Counted from the first letter of the stretch, positions 48,844-64,000 are shown. The stretch: 64,000 nt of DNA from Escherichia coli (GCF_044324875.1 NZ_CP172185.1), one strand, 5' to 3'. Notes: generated by a model from the sequence alone, not told the origin. Made by a program: numbers and translations.

Positions 48844-48852
48844 GCCGCGCCC

Positions 48853-49316: not shown

Positions 49317-49413
49317 GATTTAATTCTCCTCTGTTTCCGGCGTGCAGAAGCCCGCGGCGCTGACGCCGGAATAAAAAAGAAAATGTTTTTATTAAATAAT
49401 TAACGTGGTGTGT

Positions 49414-49944: not shown

Positions 49945-49971
49945 ATTTTATGATTTCTCCGGTTGTGCTGA

Positions 49972-50241
49972 TTACCACAAAGATTCCGGCCACACGACGC
50001 GACAGCCGTGCAGTTCGAAAACGCCCTGACGGAAATATCCCCTGTGGTCATGTCCGGTATACAGATAACAGGCCTTTCCCTGCTCAAGCATGCGCATGCA
50101 ATGCGCACTCCGGGAAACGCGGATGACAGGTTTGTTACCCCTGATGGTGATGCTTTGTACATCCGTGTTCGTCGCCTTAAGCGCCATAATGGCTGACTGC
50201 ACTTTGCTGATTTGCTGGTTGATACCTGTGGTGGATTTCAT
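49972..50241 (-). CDS. hypothetical early protein
   Basis: 89-aa ORF immediately after the B-like ATPase gene (stop 50244, start 50241). No motif was recognised. Confidence 0.5.
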   Translation of the reverse strand: MKSTTGINQQISKVQSAIMALKATNTDVQSITIRGNKPVIRVSRSAHCMRMLEQGKACYLYTGHDHRGYFRQGVFELHGCRVVWPESLW

Positions 50242-50243
50242 TA

Positions 50244-51410
50244 TTAAACTCCTTTGACAACGTCAGCGTTGACCTGTGGAACCCCGATTTCAGCGGCCAG
50301 ATTCATGGCGGCTATTACCAGGTTACTGACGGCCAGCGGATACAGCAGGCTGACCATATTTTTACGATGACTTCCCGGATTGCTCAGGCGGGCACGTATG
50401 GCATCCACTGCGCTGGCGTCCATAATGTCCGTCAGTTGTTTACCGGCCCGTTGCAGTTTGAACGTCAGAAATTCTTCAAGGTTATTGTCCAGAGGCAGAA
50501 GTTCGACCACCTCACAGCGCTGAACGACTTCACGGACTTCCATATTGCGTTCAGACAGTTTTGTCGCCAGTTCCGGCTGGCCAATCAGCACGATGGACAG
50601 CAGTTTTTTGAAACCGGACTCCAGCTCAAAAAAGCGTTTGAGGTGTTTCAGTGTCGGAATGGGCAGACTGTGGGCCTCCTCAATCACCAGAACGTGGCTG
50701 AACCCCGCCTGGCTGCTGTCTTTCAGGACGCGATGCAACTGGCGAAAGCGGGCGTCCTGACTGCGTCTGATGCTTTCCAGTGGTGCGATGGTACTGATAA
50801 TGGCTTCGGCAATAGCTGCTGCCTTCAGGGTTTTCCCTTTCACATCGTTGTCTTCCATAGCGATGATGTATGGCTCGATAACAATTACCGGCGCATTCTC
50901 GCGGTTAATACGTTCAGTCAGGTCGCGGCGCAGCGTGGATTTACCCGCACCGGACTCACCGATGACGGCCATAAACCCACCATGACGGGCTGTCTGGTAC
51001 AGCGCCTCACGCACGTAGCGAATGTCCGGGGTGGTGAACACATCATCAGAACCCTGCATGGCTTCATCGGCGAACGGGTCACGGAAAAGACCAAACGCTT
51101 TTTTGGTTGCTGGAAATAACACCTGTTTTTTGAGTAACATATTCTCTTCCTCACTGAGGCTCGTTTTATCTGTGGTACCCGCTGTACGGGGCGTGGCCGC
51201 GCCCTGTACAGCATCAAAACTCTTCGTTGTATCAATCCCCTGACTTTCCAGCCAGGACGCAAGACGCCGGCGCACTTCTCCGGGGCTGGTGCGGGGCCAC
51301 GCGTTATGATTCACAATCTGGGCCAGCGTGGCCTCAGAAACATCGACAGCTCTCGCCGCCACCGCCTGTGGAATACGGGCCTCTTTCAGTTGCTGCTTCA
51401 GTACCAGCAT
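50244..51410 (-). CDS. transposition ATPase (MuB analogue, ExeA/AAA_22-type)
   Basis: ORF trimmed to the ATG at 51410, preceded by GAGGAGGG, giving 388 aa. It has an N-terminal HTH-like segment, Walker A GESGAGKST and Walker B HVLVIEEAH. It lies directly downstream of the transposase gene. Confidence 0.85.
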   Translation of the reverse strand: MLVLKQQLKEARIPQAVAARAVDVSEATLAQIVNHNAWPRTSPGEVRRRLASWLESQGIDTTKSFDAVQGAATPRTAGTTDKTSLSEEENMLLKKQVLFPATKKAFGLFRDPFADEAMQGSDDVFTTPDIRYVREALYQTARHGGFMAVIGESGAGKSTLRRDLTERINRENAPVIVIEPYIIAMEDNDVKGKTLKAAAIAEAIISTIAPLESIRRSQDARFRQLHRVLKDSSQAGFSHVLVIEEAHSLPIPTLKHLKRFFELESGFKKLLSIVLIGQPELATKLSERNMEVREVVQRCEVVELLPLDNNLEEFLTFKLQRAGKQLTDIMDASAVDAIRARLSNPGSHRKNMVSLLYPLAVSNLVIAAMNLAAEIGVPQVNADVVKGV

Positions 51411-51420
51411 GTTTCCCTCC

Positions 51421-53190
51421 TCAGTTGCCGTTAACAATGCTGATAACGCTGCTGCGGGCCGGCGTGGTCAGCGTGGCCATGACTTCATCCAGTGCGGCTT
51501 CCGGTACGCCGTCCGGGTACTGTGCTGTTAACTGGCGGTAATGTTCCGGCGTCCAGGTCAGGCCGTCGGCGCTGAACTTATCGCGCAGGGCTTTCGCGGC
51601 CTCCACATGAGTCATGGGACGCTGTTCAGTGCGCGGTCCGCGTACGTCAGAGGCCTGACCACGCTTCGGTATACAGGCCGGAAGTGTGGCGTCATCAATA
51701 TGTTTATACGGGTCAAGCCGCCCGCCGAACGGCAGCGCCTTCGCCTTGCGTGCGGCAGCTGCATCTGCGGCGTTGTCTGTACCGGTGACCAGCGCTTCGG
51801 TTTCTTTTGCCGCCATCTGCGCCGGGGTTTCCGGCAGGGCTTTGTAACTTTCGCCAAATACCGCCGCGCCTTCAGCAAAGCCAAACTCGTTCTTTCTGAC
51901 CTCTTCGACCAGGAAGAACGTCTCGTGGCCGTCCTCACCGGTCAGAACCACCTGTGCCACATCGCTGCGCCACGGGTTACGGGTAATCATCAGTTTTTCA
52001 CCGACCAGTACGCCCGGTACCGTTGATACGTCAAATTCAGTGCCCCGGAACGAGACACGAAGTTTTGGCGTGACTTTGCGGAGTTCTGGTGCCGCCACAG
52101 CCAGTTCACGACATACCTCAACGGAAGGCGCTTTTTTCAGCTGCTCAGCAGTAATCTTCAGCCAGATATCCGTGCGGGTTTTACCGTGGCGGCTGTGAAC
52201 AGCCGTGGCGTTAAAGTGGCTGCGCCATTTCGCGGCCAGCGCGTTGAGTTCTTCCAGACTGTGAACCGGCCGGAACTTCAGACCCGGCTCCAGCTTGCGT
52301 TCGATAATGTCACGCGCCTTTTCCACCTGTCCGGTGGCGCGGGCGTTATGCGGCTTGTGCGCTATCAGGTCGATGCCCAGTGAGCGGCACATGTTTTTCG
52401 TCATACCCGCGGTGTTTGCCGAGCCGGGGTCGAGATAGAGTATTTTTGGCACGCCGTGCAGCACGTCTGCGCCGCCACGCTCCTGCATGGCGTTGATAAG
52501 CACAGAACACAGGTTCTCACCGGATTCCGCACCCGTCACATACTCAACGTAAATCCAGCCGCTGGCATGGTCGGTAATCTCGTAACTCCACACGCGGTCA
52601 CTGGCGATACGGGCAAGGTTAGCGGGCTTGTTTTTGTAGAATTTCGCGCTGTCCATCACCTGCAGCCCTTTATGTCCATTGCTCAGGTAGTAAAGCGTGC
52701 AGAGTGAGGCGTCAATCTGCCAGACATGATTGGGGTGCAGACTGGCCACTTCGGTATGCGGTGCAGGGGCATCCAGTTGTTCCGGGTGCAGGCCATAGTT
52801 ACGCAGGGCACGACTGATGGCATCTTCGGACAACGGGAAAAACTCACCGGTGGTTTCATCTGTTCTGCCTGCGGAGATAAAGCCGTTAGCCCGCAGGGTT
52901 TCCACTGCATCCGCGATGGAATAGAGACGCTTACCGTTCTTGCGGGTGGCCTCACGTAGTGTGGCAGATATCAGCGCGGCTTCGTCGCGGGTCAGGGTGC
53001 TGCGTCCGGCATCGGCGCGTTTTTTGCGTTTATCAGTCACAGAGACCTCCTTCAGCCTGCGCAGCAGAGTGGCGCGGGACATGCCAAGTTCAGCACAGGC
53101 AGCGTCGTATATTGCACCGCGTTTACCATGCCCCGCATTACGTGCCGCGCGGGCTGTTTCAACAAGTTTTTCAGTCAGTGCCGGGGTCAT
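51421..53190 (-). CDS. DDE transposase (MuA analogue, rve/integrase core)
   Basis: 589 aa with an N-terminal HTH (MSRATLLRRLKEV). The catalytic triad candidates are D in VWQIDAS, D in LYLDPGS and E 36 residues later (GQVEKA), which is the D-x35-E spacing. Confidence 0.9.
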   Translation of the reverse strand: MTPALTEKLVETARAARNAGHGKRGAIYDAACAELGMSRATLLRRLKEVSVTDKRKKRADAGRSTLTRDEAALISATLREATRKNGKRLYSIADAVETLRANGFISAGRTDETTGEFFPLSEDAISRALRNYGLHPEQLDAPAPHTEVASLHPNHVWQIDASLCTLYYLSNGHKGLQVMDSAKFYKNKPANLARIASDRVWSYEITDHASGWIYVEYVTGAESGENLCSVLINAMQERGGADVLHGVPKILYLDPGSANTAGMTKNMCRSLGIDLIAHKPHNARATGQVEKARDIIERKLEPGLKFRPVHSLEELNALAAKWRSHFNATAVHSRHGKTRTDIWLKITAEQLKKAPSVEVCRELAVAAPELRKVTPKLRVSFRGTEFDVSTVPGVLVGEKLMITRNPWRSDVAQVVLTGEDGHETFFLVEEVRKNEFGFAEGAAVFGESYKALPETPAQMAAKETEALVTGTDNAADAAAARKAKALPFGGRLDPYKHIDDATLPACIPKRGQASDVRGPRTEQRPMTHVEAAKALRDKFSADGLTWTPEHYRQLTAQYPDGVPEAALDEVMATLTTPARSSVISIVNGN

Positions 53191-53205
53191 AGCTTGTCTT
53201 CCCTG

Positions 53206-53523
53206 TTATCCGATTCTGGCGGCAATTTTTCTGGCACGGTCGCGCAGGGTTTCGCCATCGCAGGTTTTCACCACGTTATTTACCGGTTGCGGCGCAACTG
53301 CCGGGCGCAATGCTGACTGATGCTGCAGACGTCTTATCTGCTGCATCAGCATCACTTCCATCGTCAGTACAAACGGATGCGCCTCCTGTGCGGGTACGCA
53401 GATTTCACCGGAAGGTGTCACCACGCGGAAACCCTGCACCATCTCCGGCAGCAGATTACACAGTGCGTGCCCCAGTGCCTCCGGGCTGTCCATCAGGATA
53501 TTTTGTGTGTTATCCGTGTTCAT
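53206..53523 (-). CDS. hypothetical early protein
   Basis: 105-aa ORF whose start overlaps the upstream stop (TAATG). Confidence 0.5.
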   Translation of the reverse strand: MNTDNTQNILMDSPEALGHALCNLLPEMVQGFRVVTPSGEICVPAQEAHPFVLTMEVMLMQQIRRLQHQSALRPAVAPQPVNNVVKTCDGETLRDRARKIAARIG

Positions 53524-54440
53524 TACTGCATGCCCTCCGGTCGGTTGATTTCAGGCTCCGGTTCGGTCAGCCATGCGGGGACATCGTTACCCGATGGTGC
53601 GGCATCAAGGTCGAACGTCTCACGCAATGCATGAACACTGCGTTCAATCTGGCAGACCAGACCGGCCATGAAATCTCTGGGGGTATCAATCATGTTTTTA
53701 CTGCAGTATTCACACAGGGTTTCAAAGGCACCGGAGAGCCGGACGGCGATGGCAGATTCCGCCTCAACCGCTAATGCGGTCACTTCCGCCCGCAGCTTCT
53801 TCACCTCTTCATCAGGCTCAGGCGGTTGAATACGGGATTTCTTCTCCAGTTTTGTGGCCAGTTCGTTGATTTTTTCGTCCTTTCCGGCAAGCACCTGTTG
53901 CTGAGCTGCGTTAGTTTCGCGCGCTTCACGCAGGGCCTGGCGAAGTTCACGTACTGACATGCGATCAACATCATCAAGCGTCAGGCCGGCAACTGTGCCG
54001 CCGTCGGCCAGTTCGGCAAGGTCTTCATCGTCTTCAGCAACAAGTTCAAATAATTTTGCCTTACCCAAAAGCGACAACGTTGTCGCTTTTGGCTCTAGTT
54101 TTGGTGAAAGGTATTTCAAAGATGCTTTCATCATTCGTTGTGCTGCGCGCACGTGCAAACCAAGTTGTTCTTCTACAATTCCAACAAAGTCCCCGTGTGG
54201 CTCATTTTCTTTTAAGATGATCAGCCGTTTACCCGCTTCCAGCATAGATTCAGCACTCTGCGCCATATAAAAACGTGCTTCGTGAACGATGCGATCACGT
54301 TCATAAGGCAGTCCATCACCAAACTGCTGCATGATCTCCATGCGATGCTGTGTCATGGCATTCAGGCTGACGTTGAGATCATCCGACAGCGGTACCTCGG
54401 CGTTCAGTTCAGTGTTAACCGGTGATTTGGTGCGTCCCAT
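53523..54440 (-). CDS. coiled-coil early protein (possibly DUF3102-like)
   Basis: 305-aa ORF preceded by AAGGAG. It has a central acidic segment and a long predicted coiled coil (RELRQALREARETNAAQQQVLAGKDEKINELATKLEKK). The family assignment is from memory only. Confidence 0.5.
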   Translation of the reverse strand: MGRTKSPVNTELNAEVPLSDDLNVSLNAMTQHRMEIMQQFGDGLPYERDRIVHEARFYMAQSAESMLEAGKRLIILKENEPHGDFVGIVEEQLGLHVRAAQRMMKASLKYLSPKLEPKATTLSLLGKAKLFELVAEDDEDLAELADGGTVAGLTLDDVDRMSVRELRQALREARETNAAQQQVLAGKDEKINELATKLEKKSRIQPPEPDEEVKKLRAEVTALAVEAESAIAVRLSGAFETLCEYCSKNMIDTPRDFMAGLVCQIERSVHALRETFDLDAAPSGNDVPAWLTEPEPEINRPEGMQ

Positions 54441-54450
54441 TGATTACTCC

Positions 54451-54765
54451 TTACAAACGACTACCTGAAATGACACGTTGGTTGATTTCGTTAATGCGAT
54501 CCTGTGCACGTGCCATCTCGTTACTGTGGGCCATGGCGATCTGCAGCAACTGGATGCCCGGTGCGAAACGCCCGTTTTCCAGTTTCAGGGCCAGTCCTTC
54601 TTCAATGAGGGTGTTGAGTGCCCGGTTGATGTTTGCCGGTGACTCGTGCAGTGCTGCCGCCAGTTCACCATTGGAAATACCGTTCAGGGCATGACCGCGC
54701 AGCGCTTTGAGTACCCGGAGGATGCGACTGCCGGAGCTTGAAACATTCGTCTTACTCATCTGCAT
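54451..54765 (-). CDS. winged-helix DNA-binding protein (IclR-N-like)
   Basis: 104 aa. The segment RILRVLKALRGHALNGISNGELAAALHESPANINRALNTLIEEGL resembles an IclR-type wHTH. Confidence 0.55.
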   Translation of the reverse strand: MQMSKTNVSSSGSRILRVLKALRGHALNGISNGELAAALHESPANINRALNTLIEEGLALKLENGRFAPGIQLLQIAMAHSNEMARAQDRINEINQRVISGSRL

Positions 54766-54811
54766 ACCTCTTTTGCGATATGTGATAACCTTTTACAAAG
54801 AATCAAAATAT

Positions 54812-55000
54812 TCAGGCTGCCTGAGCTGTTGATTTCAGCCCCAGTTTCACGGCGATTTCATGGGATTTACCGTAACGTGCTTTGCTCTGCCCATTGAGAA
54901 CGCGGTATACCTCATTGCGGTTGTAGCCGTTTTCTTCTGCCCAGCGGGTGAAAGTGATCCCGCGCTGGCGGAAGAGAGCTTTGACTTGTTCTGCAGTCAT
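54812..55000 (-). CDS. small HTH protein, first gene of the early operon (Ner/Cro functional analogue, BcepMu gp16-like)
   Basis: 62 aa, preceded by AAGGAG and divergent from the repressor gene. The HTH-like segment is FTRWAEENGYNRNEVYRVLNG. Confidence 0.6.
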   Translation of the reverse strand: MTAEQVKALFRQRGITFTRWAEENGYNRNEVYRVLNGQSKARYGKSHEIAVKLGLKSTAQAA

Positions 55001-55100
55001 CGTTGTCTCCTTTGTTGATGCAATGATGTTTGCCTTATGTGTGATAGATTATGGTGCAGATTATCTCACCAGTCAACTTAAAGAGTGCAGAAAAACTCAC
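55001..55100. promoter_or_regulatory. divergent immunity/early promoter-operator region
   Basis: 100-bp spacer between the Ner-like gene and the repressor gene. It contains GTGAT-AGATTAT-GGTGC-AGATTAT-CTCAC, with the 7-bp direct repeats at 55046 and 55058 and outer GTGA/TCAC inverted arms. Confidence 0.55.
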
Positions 55101-55439
55101 ATGATCGGGTTACGTATTAAAGAAGAAAGAGAGCGTCTATCTCTTACACAGCAAGGGTTGGCTGATGCTATCGGTGTGGCAAAGAGAACTTTTATTGATT
55201 GGGAAAAAGATCGCACTTCTCCTACTGCAGTGCAGTTATCTGCACTATCAGAAATCGGTGTAGATGTTTTGTATGTAGTTACTGGGGTGCGGAGTCAGCC
55301 TGTTGTTGCACCTTATATGTCACAAGAAAAGAAAGAGTTAATGGATGCATTCGACGAGATGAGCCCCGAACAACGGAGGGCAATTCTTGAGGTCGGCAAA
55401 GTCTTCATTCAACCCAAACCAAGCAAACTCGCAGGCTGA
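55101..55439 (+). CDS. XRE-family prophage repressor (no peptidase domain)
   Basis: ORF 54948..55439 trimmed to the ATG at 55101, giving 112 aa. The HTH_3 motif is LRIKEERERLSLTQQGLADAIGVAKRTFIDWEKDRTSP. Confidence 0.8.
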   Translation: MIGLRIKEERERLSLTQQGLADAIGVAKRTFIDWEKDRTSPTAVQLSALSEIGVDVLYVVTGVRSQPVVAPYMSQEKKELMDAFDEMSPEQRRAILEVGKVFIQPKPSKLAG

Positions 55440-55524
55440 TTCTGACCTGGACAGAAAGGACAGGTGGTTGATCTGGATGCTTTCAGAAAACGCCGTCAGT
55501 AGCATGGCAGAAATCGGCGGGCTT

Positions 55525-55549
55525 ACCGGAAAGCACTGTACTTTCCGGT
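55525..55549. terminator. hairpin between the convergent repressor and dam genes
   Basis: Stem ACCGGAAAG / CTTTCCGGT with a 7-nt loop. The flanking T runs are weak. Confidence 0.4.
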
Positions 55550-55557
55550 TATGGCTT

Positions 55558-56322
55558 TTAGAAATTGCAGATCACCAGCTCACGGCGTGGAGTTGATTTG
55601 CCTGCCAGACTGTAGTTGATGTTCACTGTCTGTATGTTCAGTCCAGTGAACACCTCGCGCATCTGCGGGATGTCGTTCACCGAAATTATCATCTTTCCTC
55701 TGATGCACCGGGCCAGCTCTGCCAGCCGCGAGTAGTTCCCTTCAGGAAAATCCACACCATAGCCTTCTGTACCCAGATACGGCGGGTCACAGTAGAACAG
55801 CGTGTGCGGACGGTCATAGCGCTCAATGCACTGTTGCCAGTCCATGTGTTCTATCACCGTTCTGGAAAGCCGCAGGTGTGCCGCTGACAGTTCTTCCTCG
55901 ATACGCAGCAGGTTGAAGCGTGGCGGGGATGTGGTGGAGGTGCCGAAGCTGTGCTCTGCCACCTTGCCGCCAAACGCCTGCTTCTGGAGGTAGTAGAACC
56001 GTGCTGCACGCTGGATATCCGTCAGTGTTTCTGTCGGGGTGATCTGCAGCCATTTGTAGATCTGCCGGCTGACCAGCGCCCATTTGAACTGGCGGACAAA
56101 TTCTTCCAGATGATGTTTTACCACCCGATACAGATTTACCAGTTCACCATTGATATCGTTAATGACTTCGAGCTTACCAGGTGTCTTAAGAAAATAGAGC
56201 GCTGCTGCGCCGCAGAACGGCTCCACGTAACATTCATGCGCCGGAAACAGCGGCAGGATGTGTTTTGCCAGGCGACGTTTGCCACCAATCCATGGAACGA
56301 TGGGTAATGTCTGCATTTTCAT
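55558..56322 (-). CDS. dam: Dam-type N6-adenine DNA methyltransferase (D12 class), orphan
   Basis: 254 aa with the AdoMet motif EPFCGAAALYF and the catalytic DPPY motif (FYCDPPYLG). No adjacent nuclease gene was recognised. Confidence 0.9.
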   Translation of the reverse strand: MKMQTLPIVPWIGGKRRLAKHILPLFPAHECYVEPFCGAAALYFLKTPGKLEVINDINGELVNLYRVVKHHLEEFVRQFKWALVSRQIYKWLQITPTETLTDIQRAARFYYLQKQAFGGKVAEHSFGTSTTSPPRFNLLRIEEELSAAHLRLSRTVIEHMDWQQCIERYDRPHTLFYCDPPYLGTEGYGVDFPEGNYSRLAELARCIRGKMIISVNDIPQMREVFTGLNIQTVNINYSLAGKSTPRRELVICNF

Positions 56323-56514
56323 AATCTGTAAGCCTTTTACAATTATTAAAAATATGGCAGGCTAGTCTGGTCTCGCGAGACTGACTGAACCCCGGTCGGC
56401 TCACAGCGCATTCCTGTGGGACGATGGCCAGCCCGGTGGGTCCGAAGCACCGGGCTGGTCGTTCTTTCATGATGCGGCAGGGATGAAGTGATTTCTGTTA
56501 ATGTGGTTTAGGGA
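56323..56514 (-). other. structured GC-rich spacer upstream of dam (possible regulatory RNA/leader or protein-binding dyads)
   Basis: A perfect 12-bp palindrome GTCTCGCGAGAC lies at 56370-56381, with AGTC/GACT extensions. A perfect 11-bp stem CCAGCCCGGTG / CACCGGGCTGG lies at 56428-56458; its loop contains CUUCGG on the minus strand. There is no convincing ORF. Confidence 0.3.
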
Positions 56515-56730
56515 TTATCCGGGGCGATTTTCTGACCTTATCTGGTCCAGGGCATAAGTGATCCCTTCTGCAAAAACAGAAGTATCAAACTGCTTTTGTA
56601 TTTCCTGAAAATGAACAGTGGCACGACAGACACTCAGTTCTCCGCGATGTAACCGGATAATATCTTCCAGAACATTGTTCACTGCTTCGGCACGGCGCTG
56701 ATGTTCTGTTAACGTTAATCGGGGATTCAT
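56515..56730 (-). CDS. hypothetical 71-aa protein
   Basis: ORF preceded by AAGGAG (plus strand CTCCTT at 56738-56743). No motif was recognised. Confidence 0.5.
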   Translation of the reverse strand: MNPRLTLTEHQRRAEAVNNVLEDIIRLHRGELSVCRATVHFQEIQKQFDTSVFAEGITYALDQIRSENRPG

Positions 56731-57107
56731 GATGCACTCCTTAAATGATGATTTTTATGTACTCACCGGCAAAATATTCTGCCGATTACTGAACACGCAT
56801 CCGGCTCCTCAGGTTTTGATTTATTCTGGTTTTTTCGATATCCCGGACCAGGTTGATCACGACAGAAAAAGTGCCGGTATTTTATTGATACGCTGATATG
56901 GCTTCGGGATAACAGCTATATTCGTTACTCTCAGTTGCTGGCTGTGGGAGCGGCTGATGTCGTCCTCACGGAAAAAACGCTCTGTCTGCTCAATGCCATG
57001 CCGACCTTTCTGCAGCCCCGGCCCGTACCATTTAAAGAGTCACTTCTGGATGCAGTAAAAACCGGTGAAAATGCAGTCATCGCTGAATGCGTATCCCGGA
57101 TTATGCG

Positions 57108-57656
57108 TTACGTGTTTAATGAACGTAAGTGAGGTTTATCCGCTGTCTGCATAATCCCGATAGCCAGTGCGAGGGGAAGCAATTCCGGGGAAACTCTTTC
57201 AAACAGCGATTCCCATTCTCCTCTCGCCATCACTCTGTCCAGCCCGCCCTCCAGCTGCATTTCAGCAATCTTCCTGATTTCCCGGAACAACGCCGCTTTG
57301 ATCTCTTCATGCTCAGCTTTATTTTCCGGTGTCAGAATGTATTCGTCGAAGAACCGGGGAGGCTGGTTAACGGGGGGCATGTTCACCGGGATGTGTTCCT
57401 GTATCCCGTACTCCGGGGCTGAAAAACATTTTGTTGTCTGACCGGTGAGTTTGCGTAACACCTTCATGAGTTGCTCCTGAAGCAGCTCATTCGTCCGACA
57501 GATACGCTCGTCGTCCACAACTGCGGCATCGACAATGACGCTTTTTCCAAATTCCTTTTTCACCATCTCTTTTATACGCGTCAGAACGTAACTTTTACCG
57601 CTGCCTACAGGCCCGGACACTCTGACGGTGATGGTCGGCTTCGGTGTGACTGTCAT
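57108..57656 (-). CDS. hypothetical protein with an N-terminal Walker-A-like motif
   Basis: ORF trimmed to the ATG at 57656, preceded by AAGGAG, giving 182 aa. ITVRVSGPVGSGKSYV fits GxxxxGK[ST], and SVIVD follows only about 20 aa later, which is atypical for a complete P-loop fold. The C-terminal half is helical. Confidence 0.55.
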   Translation of the reverse strand: MTVTPKPTITVRVSGPVGSGKSYVLTRIKEMVKKEFGKSVIVDAAVVDDERICRTNELLQEQLMKVLRKLTGQTTKCFSAPEYGIQEHIPVNMPPVNQPPRFFDEYILTPENKAEHEEIKAALFREIRKIAEMQLEGGLDRVMARGEWESLFERVSPELLPLALAIGIMQTADKPHLRSLNT

Positions 57657-57787
57657 TCTGTATCTCCTTTGTGAGTGATCCAGCGTGTATTCTGCATACC
57701 CCGAACACGCCTCTCTCTTAACGCGCTTTAAAATCCTCCGCGCCACGCTTTTGCCATGCTGTCTCCACACAACAAGGAGACATTTTC

Positions 57788-58138
57788 ATGAAACCATTCA
57801 CTTCCCTTATCGTTGACGTACAAAAAACCCGCCTGCGTGGATGGCTTGTTGCGGCCGTGCTGCTGCTCCTCATCATCGCGCTGGTCTCACCCCAGCAGTT
57901 GCCGGTGGTGGTGTACAAGCTCTCTCTCATCTCCCTCGCCGCCGTGCTCGGCTACTGGCTGGACCGCTCACTCTTCCCGAAGGCCCGTCCGGGGCAGTAC
58001 CTGAAGCATGACGAGCGCCTCATGGCTGAGGGGCGCTGGCCCGTACAGACCGGCCTTCACCTGGTGTTTTCTGCTGCGTTAATCCGCCGTGCACTGATTG
58101 TTGCAGCTGTCTGTCTGGCTGTTGCGATGGGGCTTTAA
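57788..58138 (+). CDS. putative holin (3 TM)
   Basis: 116 aa, preceded by AAGGAGA. It has three hydrophobic segments and sits immediately upstream of the endolysin gene. Confidence 0.6.
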   Translation: MKPFTSLIVDVQKTRLRGWLVAAVLLLLIIALVSPQQLPVVVYKLSLISLAAVLGYWLDRSLFPKARPGQYLKHDERLMAEGRWPVQTGLHLVFSAALIRRALIVAAVCLAVAMGL

Positions 58139-58140
58139 TC

Positions 58141-58875
58141 ATGAACTGGCCACAGAGCACCTGGATTGTATGCATGTCCCTGAAACTGGCTTTCGAAGCC
58201 TTTCTGGTCTTCATCAGAACCGAACGCCTGTCAGTCCGTGTCGGGACCTTTCTGGTTCATATGGCATGGGTATTCTTTGTCGCAATGTTGCTCTGGTGTG
58301 GCGGCTTCTTCAGTCAGGCCCGCGCAGCGCAGCCTCCGCAGGCTGCGCTGCAGTATCGCGATGATGTGATCCGTAATGCCCGGCTTGAATGGGGGCTGTC
58401 TGCGCCGGTGGCCGATTTCGCCGCGCAACTGCATCAGGAAAGCGGCTGGCGGACTGATGCGGTCTCGCCGGTGGGCGCTCAGGGGCTGGCGCAGTTTATG
58501 CCCGCCACCGCTGACTGGATAAGCCAGTTGATGCCGGCGTTGAGCAGTCGTGAGCCGTTTAATCCGGCATGGGCCATCCGGGCGCTGGTCAGCTATGACC
58601 GCTGGCTGTGGCAGCGCATCAGCGCCGCCAGTGACTGCGAGCGTATGGCCATGACACTGTCGGGCTATAACGGTGGTCTGGGTTGGGTACAACGGGACAG
58701 GCGGCTCGCATCACAGAAAGGTCTGGACAGCACCCGCTGGTTCGGACATGTCGCCACGGTGAATGCCGGACGCAATGCTGCCAGCTGGCGGGAGAACCGC
58801 CATTATCCGCAGCGCATCCTGCACGAACTGGCCCCCCGTTATCTGACATGGGGGGGCGGCAGCTGTGTGGACTAA
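58141..58875 (+). CDS. SLT-domain lytic transglycosylase endolysin with an N-terminal hydrophobic anchor or signal
   Basis: The ORF carries the catalytic ES motif (QLHQESGW), GLAQFMPATA and YNGG. Its N-terminus contains MAWVFFVAMLLWCGGFFSQARA. The start codon is ambiguous (58141 or 58261). Confidence 0.8.
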   Translation: MNWPQSTWIVCMSLKLAFEAFLVFIRTERLSVRVGTFLVHMAWVFFVAMLLWCGGFFSQARAAQPPQAALQYRDDVIRNARLEWGLSAPVADFAAQLHQESGWRTDAVSPVGAQGLAQFMPATADWISQLMPALSSREPFNPAWAIRALVSYDRWLWQRISAASDCERMAMTLSGYNGGLGWVQRDRRLASQKGLDSTRWFGHVATVNAGRNAASWRENRHYPQRILHELAPRYLTWGGGSCVD

Positions 58876-59167
58876 CCTGCTAAAAAATCTGCCGTGGCGC
58901 AGTCTGCTGCTGGCAGTGCTCATAAATGCTTTTCTGATTGGACTTTATTACCTGGGCTACAAAAGTGCAAAATGGCATCTGAATCGATCGCAGTTTGGCA
59001 TTCGAATCGATCATGATTTGGCATCCATCTCCGATCACAGTTTGGCATCACAATCGATCACGATTTGGCATGCTTCCGATCATTGATTGGCATCCTGCCA
59101 GTCACTCCGGGAATTAACTCTTTTCACCACAGTCTCCATTGCCGTGTTTAAACCAGTGGAGACGTCA

Positions 59168-60733
59168 ATGTCCAGAAAGAGAAAATCCAGGAGCACTATG
59201 GAAACCTGTTTTAAGATCCTTCAGCTCAAGTTCGACAAGAAGCTGACTAACCGTTGTATCGGACTGACGTTACACATCAGCGCCTCAACCGTTTTTGAGG
59301 TTCTTGCCCGCTTCAAAGCCTCTTCTCTGTCATGGCCATTACCTGCTGATATATCCCATGACACGCTGGAGAAACTCATTTTTCCGCCCAAAGACACCTT
59401 TGCATCAGAGCTTGTAATGCCTGACATGTTGTACTTCGATACGGAAATGAGAAAACCAGGTGTGACGCGGCAACTGTTGTGGATGGAATACAAGGCACAG
59501 GCGGGTAACAAAGCGATGGGATACTCGCACTTCTGCCGTTGCTACCGGGAGTGGAAAAAAACGCGACGTCTCTCCATGCGCCAGGAGCATCGTGCCGGCG
59601 AAAAGCTTTTTATCGACTTCTGTGGTCCTACGGTTCCTGTTATTAATCCGGACACCGGTGAGATACGCCGCGTGGCAATCTTCGTGGCCGTAATGGGGGC
59701 GTCCAACTATACCTACGTTGAAGCGTGCGAAGGTCAGGACATGATGTCATGGTTAAATGCCCACAGCCGTTGCCTGACCTTCCTGGGCGGCGTACCGAAG
59801 CTGCTCATCCCCGATAACCTCAGAAGCGCAGTGAAAAAGGCCGATCGATATGAGCCTGTCATCAACGACAGTTATCAGGCACTGGCTGAGCACTATGGCA
59901 CGGTTATCATCCCGGCCCGACCACGCAAACCTAAAGATAAACCAAAAGCAGAAAACGGCGTCCTCATCGTTGAACGATGGCTTCTTGCCCGCATCCGTAA
60001 TGAAACCTTCCACACGCTCAGGGCGCTGAATGCGCGCCTTAGGGAGTTACTGACAGACATGAATAACCGGCCAATGAAGGGGTACGGCAATCAAACCCGT
60101 GCAGAACGCTTCCGCATACTGGATGCGCCAGCACTCTCTCCGCTGCCTCTGGCACCTTATGAATACACGGAATACAAAGCTGTGAAGGTTGGCCCTGACT
60201 ACCACGTTGAATATGCCCGTCACTGGTACTCCGTTCCACACGAACTGGTCGGTCAGCGTCTGTCACTGAAGGCGGGGCAGTCGGTGGTACAGCTCTGGCA
60301 CAAGGGGCAGTGTGTGGCGCAACATCCGCGCAGCACACATGAATATAAACACACAACCAATCCGCTTCACATGCCAGAGCGCCACCGGCAGCACGGGACA
60401 TGGACACCGGAACGCCTGATCGAGCAGGGAAAACGTACGGGCCCGTCCACAGGCCGGGTGGTTGAATCCATGCTGAAGGCAAAACCCCATCCGGAACTGG
60501 CTTATCGTGCAGTTCTGGGGCTGCTGGCACTTCAGAAAAAATACGGCCCGGAACGGCTGGAAAAGGCCTGTTACGTTGCCCTGCACTATAACGCCCCTGA
60601 CAGACGCTTTATCGACAATCTGCTGCGTCACCATCGGGAGAACCTGGAGCTTCCATTATCCCGCCAGGGCGAACAACATCCGGCATATGCTTCAGAGCAT
60701 GAAAACCTGCGTGGTCCGGGCTACTACCACTGA
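59168..60733 (+). CDS. istA: IS21-family transposase IstA
   Basis: ORF trimmed to the ATG at 59168, preceded by GGAG, giving 521 aa. It has an N-terminal HTH and a DDE/rve core (LFIDFCG ... LLIPDNLRSAV ... PKAENGV). Confidence 0.88.
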   Translation: MSRKRKSRSTMETCFKILQLKFDKKLTNRCIGLTLHISASTVFEVLARFKASSLSWPLPADISHDTLEKLIFPPKDTFASELVMPDMLYFDTEMRKPGVTRQLLWMEYKAQAGNKAMGYSHFCRCYREWKKTRRLSMRQEHRAGEKLFIDFCGPTVPVINPDTGEIRRVAIFVAVMGASNYTYVEACEGQDMMSWLNAHSRCLTFLGGVPKLLIPDNLRSAVKKADRYEPVINDSYQALAEHYGTVIIPARPRKPKDKPKAENGVLIVERWLLARIRNETFHTLRALNARLRELLTDMNNRPMKGYGNQTRAERFRILDAPALSPLPLAPYEYTEYKAVKVGPDYHVEYARHWYSVPHELVGQRLSLKAGQSVVQLWHKGQCVAQHPRSTHEYKHTTNPLHMPERHRQHGTWTPERLIEQGKRTGPSTGRVVESMLKAKPHPELAYRAVLGLLALQKKYGPERLEKACYVALHYNAPDRRFIDNLLRHHRENLELPLSRQGEQHPAYASEHENLRGPGYYH

Positions 60734-60749
60734 CAGAAGGAACAACAGT

Positions 60750-61505
60750 ATGAGTGATAACCTGTTAAACAAACTGACCCAACTGAAACTCCCGGCGATG
60801 GCCGGGAGCCTGATACGGCAGCGGGAAACGCCTCAGACCTACGACGAACTGTCGTTCGAGGAAAGGCTGACGCTGCTGGTTGATGACGAGCTTCTGAGCA
60901 GGGAAAACAGCCGTGTGGCACGGTTGAGAAAAAATGCCGGCCTGAAATACCAGGCAACACCGGAAGGGCTGCGCTATCCGGCCTCAAGAGGTCTGCGGGC
61001 TGAACAGATGAGAGAACTGCTGAACGGCCACTACATAACCCACAGGAAAAACCTGCTGATAACCGGTCCGACAGGATGTGGCAAGAGCTGGATAGCCAAT
61101 GCGCTGGGCGAACAGGCATGTCGACAGAAACACAGCGTCCGGTACTGTAGAACCGGGCGATTACTGGAACAACTGGCTCAGGGACGTGTTGATGGCAGCT
61201 GGCTGAAATATCTGAAACAGTTGCAAAAAATACAGGTTCTAATCCTGGACGATCTGGGGCTGGAACAGTTAAGTAACGCCCAGTGTAATGACCTTCTGGA
61301 GCTCATAGAGGATCGTTACGGACAAAGCAGCACGATAGTGGTAAGCCAGTTCCCGGTAGATAAATGGCATGGTCTGATGGAGAACCCAACAACAGCAGAT
61401 GCCATCCTGGACAGACTGGTACATAACTCACACCGAGTGGTCCTTCAGGGAGAGTCACTGAGGAAAAATCCCCCGGTAGTGGAAAGCAGCGAAAAAACGC
61501 GTTAA
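60750..61505 (+). CDS. istB: IS21-family helper ATPase IstB
   Basis: ATG at 60750, 16 nt after the istA stop, giving 251 aa. Walker A is GPTGCGKSW and Walker B is VLILDDLG. Confidence 0.9.
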   Translation: MSDNLLNKLTQLKLPAMAGSLIRQRETPQTYDELSFEERLTLLVDDELLSRENSRVARLRKNAGLKYQATPEGLRYPASRGLRAEQMRELLNGHYITHRKNLLITGPTGCGKSWIANALGEQACRQKHSVRYCRTGRLLEQLAQGRVDGSWLKYLKQLQKIQVLILDDLGLEQLSNAQCNDLLELIEDRYGQSSTIVVSQFPVDKWHGLMENPTTADAILDRLVHNSHRVVLQGESLRKNPPVVESSEKTR

Positions 61506-61856
61506 AAAGCGGTAGAAAAAGTTAAGTTCCCGGTTGATCGAATGGATGCGAATCGCTGATCGGACTTCGATGCCAATCCGTGATCGAATAGAGCGGAATA
61601 CGCAAAAGCGGGCATGAAAACGCCACGCGCGACGGCGATAAGGCGATCAGTGAGTTGCAGTCAGCATTCGACACATACAAAACGGAGCAGGCAATGCTTG
61701 AGAACGCTGCATTGCGAGCATGGGCAAAACGGTATCAGGAGCAGGTGGCCGCTGGGCAGCAGGCTGAGGCCGGTTATCTTGAGCAGATTGCTCAACTGGA
61801 GAGTCAGAACAAACAACTACAGGGGCAAATTAACGATGTCACACAGCGCTGGATTG

Positions 61857-62123
61857 ATGAAAAAGGTAAGAGCCATCCCATTGAGTGCGTGTTTACTCGC
61901 GGTTTCGTGCGCCAGTACAACGCCGCACTCGGGTATGACAACGCATCCGTCGACACCGGTCATTCAGACTCAGTTGCCGCCACTGGCACCCGCTCTGGCA
62001 CAGCGACCGGGCAACCTGAAACCACTGACACCCGGTTACGCGATTCGGGTGTCTCCCAGCGTGACGTTCTCGCCAACATCATCGACAACGCAGGACAATG
62101 TCGTCGCTGGCGGAACCAGATAA
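61857..62123 (+). CDS. o-spanin Rz1 lipoprotein, embedded in the +1 frame of Rz
   Basis: The ATG at 61857 gives MKKVRAIPLSACLLAVSCAS, a signal sequence with a lipobox-like AVSC, followed by a proline-rich 88-aa product. It lies wholly inside the Rz C-terminal part. Confidence 0.7.
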   Translation: MKKVRAIPLSACLLAVSCASTTPHSGMTTHPSTPVIQTQLPPLAPALAQRPGNLKPLTPGYAIRVSPSVTFSPTSSTTQDNVVAGGTR

Positions 62124-62157
62124 ACGCGTTGCTGGATGAACGGGAAGGATTACAGAA

Positions 62158-62484
62158 ATGACACTGCAGGTTGAATTCTGGACGGTGGTGGGCTTTCTCA
62201 TCACCTTCATGAGCTTTGTTGGCGGTATGGCCAAATGGCTGTTCAGTAAAGCGGAGGAACGTCAGGCTGCACGTTTTGCCTCTCTTGAGCAGTCACTGCA
62301 GCAGTCCGCCTCCAGTTGGGGCGAGCTGGAAAAAGAATTGATGCGATTTAAAGCGGATTTACCGCTGAATTATGTCCGTCGCGAGGATTATATCCGTGGC
62401 CAGACAGTCATCGAGGCCAAACTGGACGCGCTTTACAACAAACTGGAAGTGGTACAGCAGTACCGCAATACCGGAGGTCAATAA
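62158..62484 (+). CDS. membrane-anchored coiled-coil protein (Mu gp25 position, possibly DUF2730)
   Basis: 108 aa with an ATGA overlap with the Rz stop. The N-terminal TM segment is FWTVVGFLITFMSFVGGMAKWLF. Confidence 0.55.
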   Translation: MTLQVEFWTVVGFLITFMSFVGGMAKWLFSKAEERQAARFASLEQSLQQSASSWGELEKELMRFKADLPLNYVRREDYIRGQTVIEAKLDALYNKLEVVQQYRNTGGQ

Positions 62485-62795
62485 TGGTCGATATTACCCG
62501 GGTACGCCGTGAATCCCTGCGCTGGAGTCTGCTGGTTGCCCTTAACAAAACCCGCCCTTACACCGCCAGCGAGACGCTGCTGCTGGAAGTGTCCCGCGCC
62601 ATCTACCCGGACACCACGCAACTGGAACTGCGCCGTGAGCTTGATTACCTGGCAGATCGCAAAATGGTGGAACTGGAGAGGAGACCGTCCGGTGACTGGT
62701 TTGCCGATCTGAGTCGCCTTGGTGTGGATATTGTGGAATACACCGTGGAATGCGGCCCCGGTATTGCCCGCCCGGAAAAATACTGGAGTGAGTGA
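62484..62795 (+). CDS. hypothetical late protein (Mu gp26 position)
   Basis: 103-aa ORF translationally coupled to both neighbours. Confidence 0.5.
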   Translation: MVDITRVRRESLRWSLLVALNKTRPYTASETLLLEVSRAIYPDTTQLELRRELDYLADRKMVELERRPSGDWFADLSRLGVDIVEYTVECGPGIARPEKYWSE

Positions 62796-63340
62796 TTATG
62801 GGACGTCGCAGCAGCATTGATTCTCTGCCGAAGGAGGTCCGTCGCTGGCTTGAGCGGGCACTGACGGAGAATAATTTCACCGGCTATGCAGAGCTTGAAA
62901 GTCTGTTGAAGGAAAAGGGGTACAGCATCACCCGCTCTTCCCTGCAGCGGTTTGGCTACAAAATGGAGCAGCAACTGGCCCGTGTGCGGGCGGCAACCGA
63001 GGCAGCGCGTCTGCTTGCCCGGGAGGCCGGAGACGATCCTGATGACCGTTCAGCCGGACTGATAACCCTCGTCCAGACCGAAATGACGGATATCCTGATG
63101 CGCCTGCAGGAGTCGCGGGAAAACGACGATCCCTTCGCCCGGGCAAAACTGCTGGCAACGGCTTCAAAAAATATCGCCACACTGACCCGCGCCTCGGTCA
63201 ACCTCAAGCGCTATCAGGCAGAAGTCAGAGAGAGGGTTGAACGTGCTGCCGCTGCCGCCGAGAAAATTGCCCGTAAGGGCGGGCTCTCTGCGGAAGCCGT
63301 ACAGGCACTGCGCCGGGAAATTCTGGGGGTGGCGTCATGA
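62792..63340 (+). CDS. Mu gp27-like small terminase subunit (DUF3486)
   Basis: 182 aa. The N-terminus GRRSSIDSLPKEVRRWLERAL and the position directly upstream of TerL fit the family, as recalled from memory. Confidence 0.65.
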   Translation: MIMGRRSSIDSLPKEVRRWLERALTENNFTGYAELESLLKEKGYSITRSSLQRFGYKMEQQLARVRAATEAARLLAREAGDDPDDRSAGLITLVQTEMTDILMRLQESRENDDPFARAKLLATASKNIATLTRASVNLKRYQAEVRERVERAAAAAEKIARKGGLSAEAVQALRREILGVAS

Positions 63341-64000
63341 CGGAGCTGCCGCCGCACATTCCTGACACCGCGAGTTATGAGACACCGCCGGTTCTGTTGC
63401 CTTACCAGCAGCGCTGGGTGGCAGATACCTCTCCGCTTAAGGTGATGGAAAAGAGCCGTCGTACCGGTATTACATGGGCTGAGGCATCCGATAACGTACT
63501 GACCGCAGCCTCTTCTGCGCCTGCAGGCGGGATGAATGTGTATTACATCGCCTATAACCAGGATATGACCGTCGAATACATTCAGGCGTGTGCGATGTGG
63601 GCGCGGGCATTCAACTATGCGGCCAGTGAAATTGAAGAAGGATTCTGGGAGGAGGACGACGACGATAAACACATCAGGACTTACACCATCAAATTTCCTG
63701 ACTCCGGCTTTCGCATTGTCGCGCTCTCCAGCCGCCCGTCTAACCTGCGTGGCCGTCAGGGTATTATTGTTATCGACGAAGCGGCGTTCCATGAGCAACT
63801 GGACGAACTGCTGAAAGCGGCGCTGGCGATGCTTATCTGGGGGGGCAAGGTACGCGTTATCTCCACCCATGACGGTGACGACAATCCATTCAGTACGCTT
63901 ATCGGAGATATCCGTGCCGGACGTCAGGGAGGCAGCGTACATCGCATCACTTTCCGGGAAGCCGTATCTGAGGGGCTGTTCCAGCGCGTTTGTCTGCGCA
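63337..64000 (+). CDS. large terminase subunit (Mu gp28-like), N-terminal 221 codons; continues past the window
   Basis: The frame from the ATG at 63337 (ATGA overlap) is open to the window edge, so the ORF track misses it. It has a Walker-B-like IIVIDEAAF and the motif LLPYQQRW typical of TerL N-termini. Confidence 0.75.
   Translation, partial: MTELPPHIPDTASYETPPVLLPYQQRWVADTSPLKVMEKSRRTGITWAEASDNVLTAASSAPAGGMNVYYIAYNQDMTVEYIQACAMWARAFNYAASEIEEGFWEEDDDDKHIRTYTIKFPDSGFRIVALSSRPSNLRGRQGIIVIDEAAFHEQLDELLKAALAMLIWGGKVRVISTHDGDDNPFSTLIGDIRAGRQGGSVHRITFREAVSEGLFQRVCLR

What the first reader, a model, noticed from the sequence alone, without database searches (positions are those of the whole stretch)
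58865..62161. IS21-family element precisely splits the Rz i-spanin gene; the frame is restored by in-silico excision
The ORF starting at 58865 encodes a typical Rz N-terminal TM anchor and runs into IS sequence at 58966. Removing 58966-61608 (the IS plus one copy of the AAAG duplication) joins ...GYK to SGHENATRDGDKAISELQSAFDTYK... This gives one uninterrupted 218-codon frame ending at 62161, a coiled-coil Rz-like protein. The insertion is therefore a clean, probably recent event. It should abolish the spanin complex, so outer-membrane disruption at lysis is impaired. It also places 2.6 kb of IS between the late promoter and Rz1 and the terminase genes, with possible polar effects. Holin and endolysin remain intact.
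Basis: seen in the sequence. Interest (0 to 1): 0.6.

Follow-up and report, generated by a model that had tools for sequence, protein, structure and literature searches.

The report
Insertion sequence splits a prophage spanin gene

Summary
Positions 58966-61604 are a complete 2,639-bp IS21-family element (istA and istB on the + strand, TG...CA ends), flanked by a 4-bp duplication AAAG. Deleting 58966-61608 gives a 654-nt ORF (217 aa). A 1,202-nt rebuilt "empty site" matches 11 complete E. coli genomes at 100% in one piece, and PGAP annotates the same CDS there.

The rebuilt protein matches PHROG 1403 "Rz-like spanin" end to end (E 1.9e-89). It has an N-terminal membrane anchor and a helix-linker-helix layout. 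It sits directly after a holin and an SLT endolysin. It carries a conserved embedded +1-frame lipoprotein gene (Rz1-like, 61857-62123), which is intact.

The host element is a Mu-like transposable prophage inserted in lhr. Apart from the IS, its visible 16 kb differs from an intact copy by one SNP, so the event is recent. None of 5,426 complete E. coli genomes has this junction.

Loss of spanin function and polarity on downstream genes are well-founded inferences but are untested. Both components are identical to catalogued sequences, and IS disruption of prophage genes is routine, so interest is low.

The parts
57788..58138 (+). Holin gene (116 aa), intact
   Evidence: Pfam Holin_2-3 E 1.7e-41. 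PHROG 1528 holin E 1.2e-50. Identical to the Ec1117 prophage.
58141..58875 (+). Endolysin gene (244 aa, SLT lytic transglycosylase with a hydrophobic N-terminal extension), intact. Its stop overlaps the Rz start.
   Evidence: Pfam SLT E 1.5e-13. PHROG 669 endolysin E 4.9e-67. Identical to Ec1117.
58865..58965 (+). 5' fragment of the i-spanin (Rz-like) gene: GTG start, 33 codons plus 2 nt, encoding the cytoplasmic tip and the membrane anchor (residues about 12-32)
   Evidence: Hydropathy maximum of 2.03 at residues 13-31. Same start as PGAP CDS WP_021537377.1.
58865..59086 (+). Chimeric truncated ORF (73 aa): 33 spanin residues fused to 40 IS-encoded residues
58962..58965 (.). Left copy of the 4-bp target-site duplication AAAG
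   Evidence: The empty site in 11 genomes has a single AAAG.
58966..61604 (+). Complete IS21-family insertion sequence, 2,639 bp, with termini TG...CA. PGAP labels the IstB of identical copies 'ISSso4 family'.
   Evidence: 100% identical over its full length to copies in many E. coli chromosomes and plasmids. Same termini in 8 copies.
58983..59094 (+). Left subterminal array of five ~23-bp repeats (ATCGATCnnnnTTTGGCAT). These are presumed IstA binding sites.
59168..60733 (+). istA transposase gene (521 aa from the ATG at 59168; PGAP uses the ATG at 59198, giving 511 aa)
   Evidence: NCBIfam transpos_IS21 E 9.7e-85, 285 bits against a cut-off of 160. Pfam rve and Mu-transpos_C_2. PGAP start.
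60750..61505 (+). istB helper ATPase gene (251 aa)
   Evidence: Pfam IstB_IS21 E 1e-60. NCBIfam IS21_help_AAA at 258 bits against a cut-off of 200.
61535..61604 (+). Right end of the IS, with two repeat copies in inverted orientation relative to the left-end repeats
61605..61608 (.). Right copy of the target-site duplication AAAG
61609..62161 (+). 3' fragment of the i-spanin gene (codons 34-217 plus stop). It has no start codon before the TTG at 61655 and no membrane anchor.
   Evidence: Identical to Ec1117.
61857..62123 (+). Embedded o-spanin (Rz1-like) gene in the +1 frame, 88 aa, with lipoprotein signal MKKVRAIPLSACLLAVS|C. An alternative upstream ATG lies at 61836. The gene is intact.
   Evidence: The open frame and lipobox are conserved in Klebsiella-phage, E. 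coli, Proteus, Morganella and Yersiniaceae relatives.
62158..62484 (+). Next late gene (108 aa, N-terminal membrane segment). Its ATG overlaps the Rz stop (ATGA).
   Evidence: PHROG 462 E 6.6e-35.
62798..63340 (+). Mu gp27-like small terminase gene, followed by the large terminase gene from 63337. Both lie downstream of the IS.
   Evidence: Pfam Phage_Mu_Gp27 E 6.4e-51. PHROG 2 terminase large subunit.

Best explanation
A complete IS21-family insertion sequence has transposed into codon 34 of the i-spanin (Rz-like) gene. The element is 2,639 bp with istA and istB, and PGAP labels identical copies 'ISSso4 family'. The host gene belongs to a Mu-like transposable prophage that itself sits in the E. 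coli lhr gene. The insertion duplicated 4 bp (AAAG) and lies just after the membrane anchor.

Shown: the insertion, its exact boundaries, the identity of the rebuilt gene with intact copies, the spanin-like anatomy, the intact embedded Rz1-like gene, and the recency of the event.

Inferred:
1. The i-spanin is now null. The N-terminal 33 residues are fused to 40 IS-encoded residues. The periplasmic part has no start codon and no anchor, so it cannot reach the periplasm.
2. [quoted passage not shown] After induction, lysis would therefore stall at the outer-membrane step, giving spherical cells, most visibly with added Mg2+ or without shear. This is the phenotype of lambda Rz or Rz1 knockouts.
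3. Expression of Rz1, the next gene and the terminase genes may fall. About 350 nt between the istB stop and the Rz1 start are now untranslated, and the ATGA stop/start coupling at 62158-62161 has lost its upstream ribosomes.
4. The extra 2.6 kb may exceed the spare capacity of headful packaging.
For: Boundaries, duplication and restored frame.

The empty site exists in nature. The 1,202-nt rebuilt query matches 11 complete genomes at 100% in one piece, and PGAP annotates the same 654-nt CDS.

IS family: NCBIfam transpos_IS21 and IS21_help_AAA both score above their cut-offs, and Pfam IstB_IS21 gives E 1e-60. Identical full-length copies occur in many genomes. Eight copies share the same termini, with duplications of 4-7 bp. 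Subterminal repeat arrays are present.

Spanin identity:
- PHROG 1403 'Rz-like spanin' E 1.9e-89, covering residues 1-217 of the protein and 1-212 of a 212-position profile.
- 421 homologues, the listed ones about 217 aa long, with no gap at the junction and G31, Y32 and G35 invariant.
- A hydropathy peak at residues 13-31.
- An AlphaFold model with a helix at 11-119, a disordered stretch at 145-172 and a helix at 184-216.
- A position immediately after the holin and the SLT endolysin.

Embedded o-spanin: an open +1 frame with a lipobox is present in all 6 relatives examined. Across the nucleotides encoding Rz linker residues 144-176, the Rz frame is 42-67% identical while the Rz1 frame is 76-97% identical. 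The gene spans 0.54-0.94 of the Rz gene length, which is typical of embedded spanins (PMC6139136).

Recency: window 45285-58965 and 61609-64000 differ from the Ec1117 prophage by a single SNP at 56065.

Expected phenotype: lambda Rz or Rz1 knockouts give spherical cells, and in shaken cultures lysis is blocked only when divalent cations are added (PMC6139136).
Against: No experiment bears on this spanin family. The protein has no Pfam or NCBIfam family, so 'Rz' is a class label resting on a PHROG annotation and on anatomy.

The AlphaFold model is only moderately confident (mean pLDDT 66, pTM 0.32).

The consensus scan found no + strand terminator-like site inside the IS, and the IS genes run in the same direction as the late genes. 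Read-through may therefore keep downstream genes expressed.

The prophage beyond 64000 is not visible, so it may carry other lesions that make the spanin loss irrelevant.

Spanin-null phages still lyse shaken cultures, so the defect may be mild in some settings (PMC6139136).
Confidence: 0.88

Rival explanations
1. The prophage was already defective or is otherwise dead, and the IS hit is a neutral event in decaying DNA with no phenotypic consequence of its own.
For: Only 18.7 kb of a roughly 40-kb element lies in the window, so the head and tail genes are unseen. IS copies commonly land in prophage genes in other E. coli: terminase, capsid, tail tip and bor were all seen among the hits.
Against: The visible 16 kb differs by one SNP from a prophage that is intact in 11 genomes. 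The prophage family sits at many different chromosomal sites, which indicates recent transposition. All visible ORFs are full length.
Confidence: 0.15
2. The split gene is not a spanin but another small bitopic membrane protein of the late operon. The +1 lipoprotein frame would then be a by-product of composition.
For: No Pfam or NCBIfam hit for either protein. RefSeq names for relatives are inconsistent: hypothetical, lipoprotein, OmpH family, MreC domain. The mature Rz1-like protein (71 aa) is longer than lambda Rz1 and has no cysteine apart from the lipobox (lipidated) one.
Against: A full-length PHROG 'Rz-like spanin' match, plus weaker matches to four other PHROG families annotated Rz-like spanin. 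A tblastn hit to an annotated spanin of Pseudomonas phage Komp_PAO1_1. A position directly after the holin and endolysin. The +1 frame is more conserved than the Rz frame over the linker. The lipobox is conserved in six taxa.
Confidence: 0.05
3. The IS at this site is an assembly artefact, with a repeat placed wrongly by the assembler.
For: The IS is multicopy in many E. coli genomes, up to 23 places per genome. No other complete genome or GTDB representative has this junction.
Against: Both junctions are base-perfect. A 4-bp duplication flanks the IS, and the two flanks are adjacent halves of one gene. A mis-join at a repeat would not create a target duplication.
Confidence: 0.02

Closest known systems
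IS21-family insertion sequences; PGAP labels the IstB of identical E. coli copies 'IS21-like element ISSso4 family'
   Same: Two genes, istA (DDE transposase) and istB (AAA+ helper). TG...CA ends. Arrays of subterminal repeats. Short target duplications of variable length. 100% identical full-length copies in many E. coli chromosomes and plasmids.
   Different: Nothing in the element itself; only this insertion site is new. I could not compare it with the ISfinder ISSso4 entry, so the exact ISfinder name is unverified.
Lambda Rz/Rz1, the prototype embedded two-component spanin
   Same: The i-spanin has an N-terminal anchor and a helix-linker-helix periplasmic domain. The o-spanin is a proline-rich lipoprotein encoded in the +1 frame inside the i-spanin gene. 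The pair lies directly downstream of the endolysin (PMC6139136).
   Different: No detectable sequence homology: no Pfam family, lambda Rz's included, matches the protein. The i-spanin is longer (217 aa). The mature o-spanin is 71 aa with 11 Pro and no periplasmic Cys, against 40 aa and 10 Pro in lambda. The function has not been tested.
Embedded spanins of transposable phages (the B3/JBD67 and BcepMu/phiE255 groups in Kongari et al. 2018)
   Same: The same phage lifestyle and the same lysis-cassette order. The SLT endolysin here is about 62% identical to those of JBD67-type Pseudomonas phages and a Burkholderia phage. The embedded architecture is the same (PMC6139136).
   Different: The spanin proteins themselves show only a weak partial match to one Pseudomonas phage spanin: 36% identity over residues 101-214, E 3e-6. 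The close relatives are the enterobacterial phages or prophages PhiKM, KP12 and Phi06_2974 B.
IS insertions that inactivate prophage genes in E. coli genomes
   Same: The same process. Other copies of this IS interrupt terminase genes and lie at capsid, tail-tip and bor genes elsewhere.
   Different: This site was not seen in 5,426 complete genomes. A literature search found no report of an IS in a spanin gene, but that is a gap in reporting rather than in kind.

Membership tests
IS21 family of insertion sequences | Two consecutive genes: istA (DDE transposase) and istB (AAA+ helper ATPase) | tested here: met
   NCBIfam transpos_IS21 at 285 bits (cut-off 160) and IS21_help_AAA at 258 bits (cut-off 200). 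Pfam IstB_IS21 E 1e-60.
IS21 family of insertion sequences | Terminal TG...CA with multiple subterminal repeats at both ends | tested here: met
   TGCAAAATGG...GGAATACGCA in 8 copies. Five ~23-bp repeats at the left end and two at the right.
IS21 family of insertion sequences | Short direct target duplication. The 4-8 bp range for the family is from my own knowledge. | tested here: met
   AAAG (4 bp) here. 4, 5, 5, 6, 6, 7 and 7 bp in seven other copies.
IS21 family of insertion sequences | Identity to the named ISfinder entry ISSso4 | not testable with these tools
   Only PGAP's product name for IstB of identical copies is available. There is no ISfinder access.
i-spanin (Rz-like) of a two-component spanin | N-terminal transmembrane anchor on a bitopic protein | tested here: met
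   Hydropathy maximum of 2.03 over residues 13-31. Helical in the model. The N-in/C-out topology itself was not tested.
i-spanin (Rz-like) of a two-component spanin | Periplasmic domain made of helical segments joined by a flexible linker | tested here: met
   AlphaFold model: helix to residue 119 (pLDDT 75-87), disordered 145-172, helix 184-216 (pLDDT 61-71). Overall confidence is moderate.
i-spanin (Rz-like) of a two-component spanin | Gene lies in the lysis cassette next to the endolysin | tested here: met
   The holin, SLT endolysin and this gene are contiguous and overlapping.
i-spanin (Rz-like) of a two-component spanin | Sequence membership in a curated spanin family | tested here: inconclusive
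   PHROG 1403 'Rz-like spanin' E 1.9e-89 over the full length. No Pfam family above cut-off, lambda Rz's included, and no NCBIfam family.
i-spanin (Rz-like) of a two-component spanin | Required for outer-membrane disruption; binds the o-spanin through its C-terminus | not testable with these tools
   Needs lysis assays or complementation of a lambda Rz/Rz1 double amber.
o-spanin (Rz1-like), embedded architecture | Lipoprotein signal peptide with a lipobox cysteine | tested here: met
   MKKVRAIPLSACLLAVS|C. The lipobox regex used (my rendering of the general lipoprotein signal pattern) matches all 6 relatives. The -3 Ala departs from the strict consensus [LVI][ASTVI][GAS]C quoted in PMC6139136.
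o-spanin (Rz1-like), embedded architecture | Short proline-rich mature domain encoded wholly inside the i-spanin gene in another frame | tested here: met
   71 aa with 11 Pro, in the +1 frame, spanning 0.54-0.94 of the Rz gene length. The typical range is from PMC6139136.
o-spanin (Rz1-like), embedded architecture | Evidence of selection on the embedded frame | tested here: met
   Over the same nucleotides, the Rz1 frame is 76-97% identical and the Rz frame 42-67% identical. Only 5 comparisons were made.
o-spanin (Rz1-like), embedded architecture | Periplasmic cysteines for intermolecular disulfides, described as general for two-component spanins | tested here: inconclusive
   The mature o-spanin has no Cys apart from the lipobox (lipidated) one. 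The i-spanin has two invariant Cys, C127 and C198.
Mu-like transposable phage (host element) | DDE transposase plus ATPase, together with Mor, GemA, Gam, gp27 and a Mu-type portal | tested here: met
Mu-like transposable phage (host element) | Insertion at many unrelated chromosomal sites | tested here: met
   The same prophage end abuts flgJ, flgA, clbG, otsA, gcl, mdfA and other genes in different genomes. Here it sits in lhr, and in Ec1117 next to inaA.

The most novel reading that the evidence does not exclude
This lysogen may be a natural i-spanin null of an otherwise intact, recently active transposable phage in which the IS is co-oriented with the late operon. Two untested consequences would be mildly new. 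First, late transcription at induction could read into istAB and couple IS21-type transposition to prophage induction. Second, the 2.6-kb insert, which takes the prophage from about 37.7 kb to about 40.4 kb, could overflow headful packaging so that particles lack the far end. The IS would then kill the phage by two independent routes while leaving host killing intact.
Probability: 0.1. Interest if true: 0.3.

Novelty: already known. Interest (0 to 1): 0.15.

Why it matters
The finding matters little beyond annotation. It shows that the two "hypothetical" fragments flanking this IS are halves of one spanin gene.

It also shows that a prophage family found in 636 of 5,426 complete E. coli genomes, with relatives in Citrobacter, Yersinia, Proteus, Morganella and others, has an embedded Rz/Rz1-type spanin pair. 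RefSeq leaves the pair unnamed, and the Rz1-like gene is not annotated in the four relatives I inspected.

For the strain itself, the prophage probably cannot complete lysis efficiently, which would be relevant only if someone wanted to induce or use this phage.

Tried and rejected
- Sister strains: I looked for strains carrying the same IS junction or the same lhr::prophage junction. None of 5,426 complete E. coli genomes has either. An exact 28-nt junction scan of the GTDB representative genomes found nothing. The "sister strain without the IS" comparison could therefore only be made with the same prophage at other chromosomal sites.
- Curated families: Pfam and NCBIfam gave nothing for the rebuilt Rz apart from a sub-threshold OmpH hit, and nothing for Rz1.
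- Promoters and terminators: the sigma-70 promoter scan of 57000-62600 found no site. The terminator scan found none on the + strand inside the IS, and its total was at chance level. Neither an IS-borne outward promoter nor an intrinsic terminator can therefore be claimed.
- A 5-bp duplication (AAAAG) was considered and rejected. The right junction has only four A's after ACGC, one of which is the IS terminal A that is fixed in 8 copies.
- Literature searches for an IS in a spanin gene and for ISSso4 gave no directly relevant report.
- Assembly artefact was rejected because of the perfect target duplication.
- I did not run a fold search. The model is an elongated helix with low pTM, and the result would not change the verdict.

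Full report
**1. The observation**

The sequence was read directly and the ORFs were listed. A GTG at 58865, overlapping the stop of the preceding gene, opens an ORF encoding MWTNLLKNLPWRSLLLAVLINAFLIGLYYLGYK. At 58966 the sequence becomes TGCAAAATGGCATC..., and the ORF runs on for 40 unrelated codons to a stop at 59086. The foreign block ends ...GGAATACGCA at 61604. AAAG lies at 58962-58965 and again at 61605-61608.

Deleting 58966-61608 gives a 654-nt frame (217 codons plus stop at 62159-62161) that reads ...GYK|SGHENATRDGDKAISELQSAFDTYK....

**2. Not chance, and a real gene**

I built a 1,202-nt "empty site" from 600 nt on each side of the excised element. It matches 11 complete E. coli genomes at 100% identity as one ungapped piece, and 634 genomes over at least 80% of its length. 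In strain Ec1117, PGAP annotates exactly this 654-nt CDS with the same GTG start, as WP_021537377.1, "hypothetical protein".

A search of 5.8 billion proteins returned 421 homologues. The listed ones are almost all 216-217 aa long and come from E. coli, Citrobacter, Yersinia, Enterobacter, Klebsiella, Salmonella, Proteus, Morganella and Serratia. In an alignment of 26 of them there is no gap at the junction, and G31, Y32 and G35 around it are invariant. The two fragments are therefore halves of one gene.

**3. The inserted element**

The block 58966-61604 is 2,639 bp.
- Its first gene (59168-60733; PGAP starts it at 59198) scores 285 bits on NCBIfam "IS21 family transposase", against a cut-off of 160.
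- Its second gene (60750-61505) scores 258 bits on "IS21-like element helper ATPase IstB", against a cut-off of 200, and gives E 1e-60 on Pfam IstB_IS21.
- The left end carries five ~23-bp repeats (ATCGATCnnnnTTTGGCAT). The right end carries two in the opposite orientation.

Full-length copies occur in 225 of 5,426 complete E. coli genomes, on both chromosomes and plasmids. Matches of any length occur at up to 23 places per genome. At least 20 records hold copies at 100.0% identity, many of them chicken isolates. PGAP names the IstB "ISSso4 family".

Seven other copies that I extracted share the same TG...CA termini and are flanked by duplications of 4, 5, 5, 6, 6, 7 and 7 bp. The 4-bp AAAG is therefore normal for this element. 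A 5-bp reading (AAAAG) is excluded, because only four A's follow ACGC at the right junction and one of them is the IS's fixed terminal base.

**4. What the split gene is**

The rebuilt protein matches PHROG 1403, "Rz-like spanin", over residues 1-217 of the protein and 1-212 of the 212-position profile, with E 1.9e-89. It also matches four other PHROG families annotated Rz-like spanin more weakly.

It has no Pfam or NCBIfam family. "Rz" here is therefore a functional class and not homology to lambda Rz.

Its anatomy fits the class as defined by Kongari et al. 2018 (PMC6139136):
- A hydrophobic anchor at residues 13-31.
- A predicted long helix to residue 119, a disordered linker at 145-172, and a C-terminal helix at 184-216. 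The model has mean pLDDT 66, so confidence is moderate.
- A position immediately after a Holin_2-3 holin (57788-58138) and an SLT endolysin (58141-58875).

**5. The embedded partner gene**

In the +1 frame, 61857-62123 encodes MKKVRAIPLSACLLAVS|CASTTPHSG.... This is a lipoprotein signal followed by a 71-aa mature part with 11 prolines.

The open frame, the lipobox and the stop position are conserved in the Klebsiella phage KP12 record, a second E. coli prophage, and Proteus, Morganella and Yersiniaceae relatives whose Rz is only about 70% identical.

Over the nucleotides encoding the Rz linker (residues 144-176), the Rz frame is 42-67% identical to the window while the Rz1 frame is 76-97% identical. 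Selection there acts on the embedded frame. The gene occupies 0.54-0.94 of the Rz gene length, as most embedded o-spanins do.

This Rz1-like gene lies wholly in the 3' fragment and is intact. It is not annotated in the four relatives whose annotation I inspected.

**6. Context and timing**

The host element is a Mu-like transposable prophage. The window holds a DDE transposase, an AAA+ partner, Gam, GemA, Mor, a dam-like methylase, gp27-type small terminase and large terminase. The Ec1117 copy continues with a Mu-type portal and contractile-tail genes.

The prophage's left end is at 45285 (TGATCAGACATGAG...), inside lhr. In other genomes the same end abuts flgJ, flgA, clbG, otsA, gcl, mdfA and other genes, so the family has transposed recently.

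Against the Ec1117 copy, window 45285-58965 and 61609-64000 show one mismatch (56065) in about 16 kb. The IS is identical to copies elsewhere. The insertion is therefore recent.

No complete E. coli genome, and no GTDB representative, has this IS junction.

**7. Consequences (inferred)**

The 5' product is a 73-aa chimera. The 3' fragment has no start codon before a TTG at 61655 and has no anchor, so a functional i-spanin cannot be made.

In lambda, loss of either spanin subunit arrests lysis at a spherical-cell stage. In shaken cultures this is seen only when divalent cations are added (PMC6139136). The same is the best expectation here.

The IS genes run with the late operon, and no + strand terminator-like motif lies inside the IS. 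Intrinsic termination is therefore not predicted. Two features could still lower expression of Rz1, the next gene and perhaps the terminase genes:
- About 350 nt from the istB stop to the Rz1 start are now untranslated.
- The ATGA overlap between the Rz stop and the next gene (62158-62161) has lost its upstream ribosomes.

From general knowledge of Mu, whose headful packaging leaves only about 2 kb of spare capacity, a 2.6-kb insert may also cause loss of the distal end in packaged DNA. The prophage is 37,726 bp in Ec1117. This was not tested.

**8. Rivals**

An assembly artefact is excluded by the perfect duplication and by the adjacent halves of one gene. A non-spanin identity is unlikely given sections 4 and 5. 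The remaining rival is that unseen lesions beyond 64000 already inactivate the prophage, which would make the hit neutral. The near-identity of the visible part to intact copies argues against this but cannot exclude it.

**9. Verdict**

The functional part remains inference. The element, the gene and the process are all known, and only the site is new. Interest is low.

Noticed in passing
window 45285 (prophage end) and 41584-45297 (lhr): The Mu-like prophage is inserted inside the helicase gene lhr and cuts it after about 1,233 of 1,538 codons. Its end reads TGATCAGACATGAGATAAATG.... None of 5,426 complete E. coli genomes has the prophage at this site.
   Followed up: partly
window 43030-43032: lhr also carries an in-frame TAA where other E. 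coli have TAC (C to A at 43032). The best of 4,381 genomes matches at 200 of 201 positions, and the one top hit I compared base by base differs at exactly this base. The gene is therefore hit twice in this strain.
   Followed up: yes
window 61857-62123; L001, L003, L004, L005: The embedded Rz1-like lipoprotein gene is not annotated in any of the four relatives whose annotation I inspected. The i-spanin gene is variously named hypothetical, lipoprotein, OmpH family or MreC domain-containing in public records.
   Followed up: partly
L002, L009-L014 (other copies of the IS): This IS makes target duplications of variable length (4, 5, 5, 6, 6, 7 and 7 bp in seven copies). It is at 100% identity in many chicken-derived E. 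coli, with matches at up to 23 places per genome. Several other copies lie in or next to prophage genes: terminase, capsid, tail tip and bor.
   Followed up: partly
L004 3144-40869 (Ec1117 prophage): The intact sister prophage is 37,726 bp. It has TGAT...ATCA ends and GCTAGT on both sides, an apparent 6-bp duplication rather than Mu's 5 bp. It lies between a LysR pseudogene and inaA.
   Followed up: partly
window 58141-58350 (endolysin N-terminus): The SLT endolysin has an N-terminal extension of about 70 aa with hydrophobic stretches. Most Pseudomonas, Burkholderia and Ralstonia phage endolysins listed do not align to it; their alignments start at residue 72. It may be a membrane-tethering or signal-anchor-release segment.
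   Followed up: no
window 62158-62161: The Rz stop (TGA) overlaps the ATG of the next late gene (ATGA). That gene encodes a 108-aa protein with an N-terminal hydrophobic segment and matches PHROG 462. Translational coupling to Rz is lost in the interrupted allele.
   Followed up: no
window 56065: This is the only base difference between the visible prophage and the Ec1117 copy (C here, T there). It lies inside the dam-like DNA adenine methylase gene, 55558-56322 on the minus strand.
   Followed up: no
window 57108-57770 (minus strand): A gene divergent from the holin matches PHROG 3787 (unknown function, E 1.2e-88) and gives weak P-loop-type Pfam hits. PGAP uses a shorter 182-aa start, which leaves about 130 bp of intergenic DNA that presumably holds the late promoter.
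   Followed up: no
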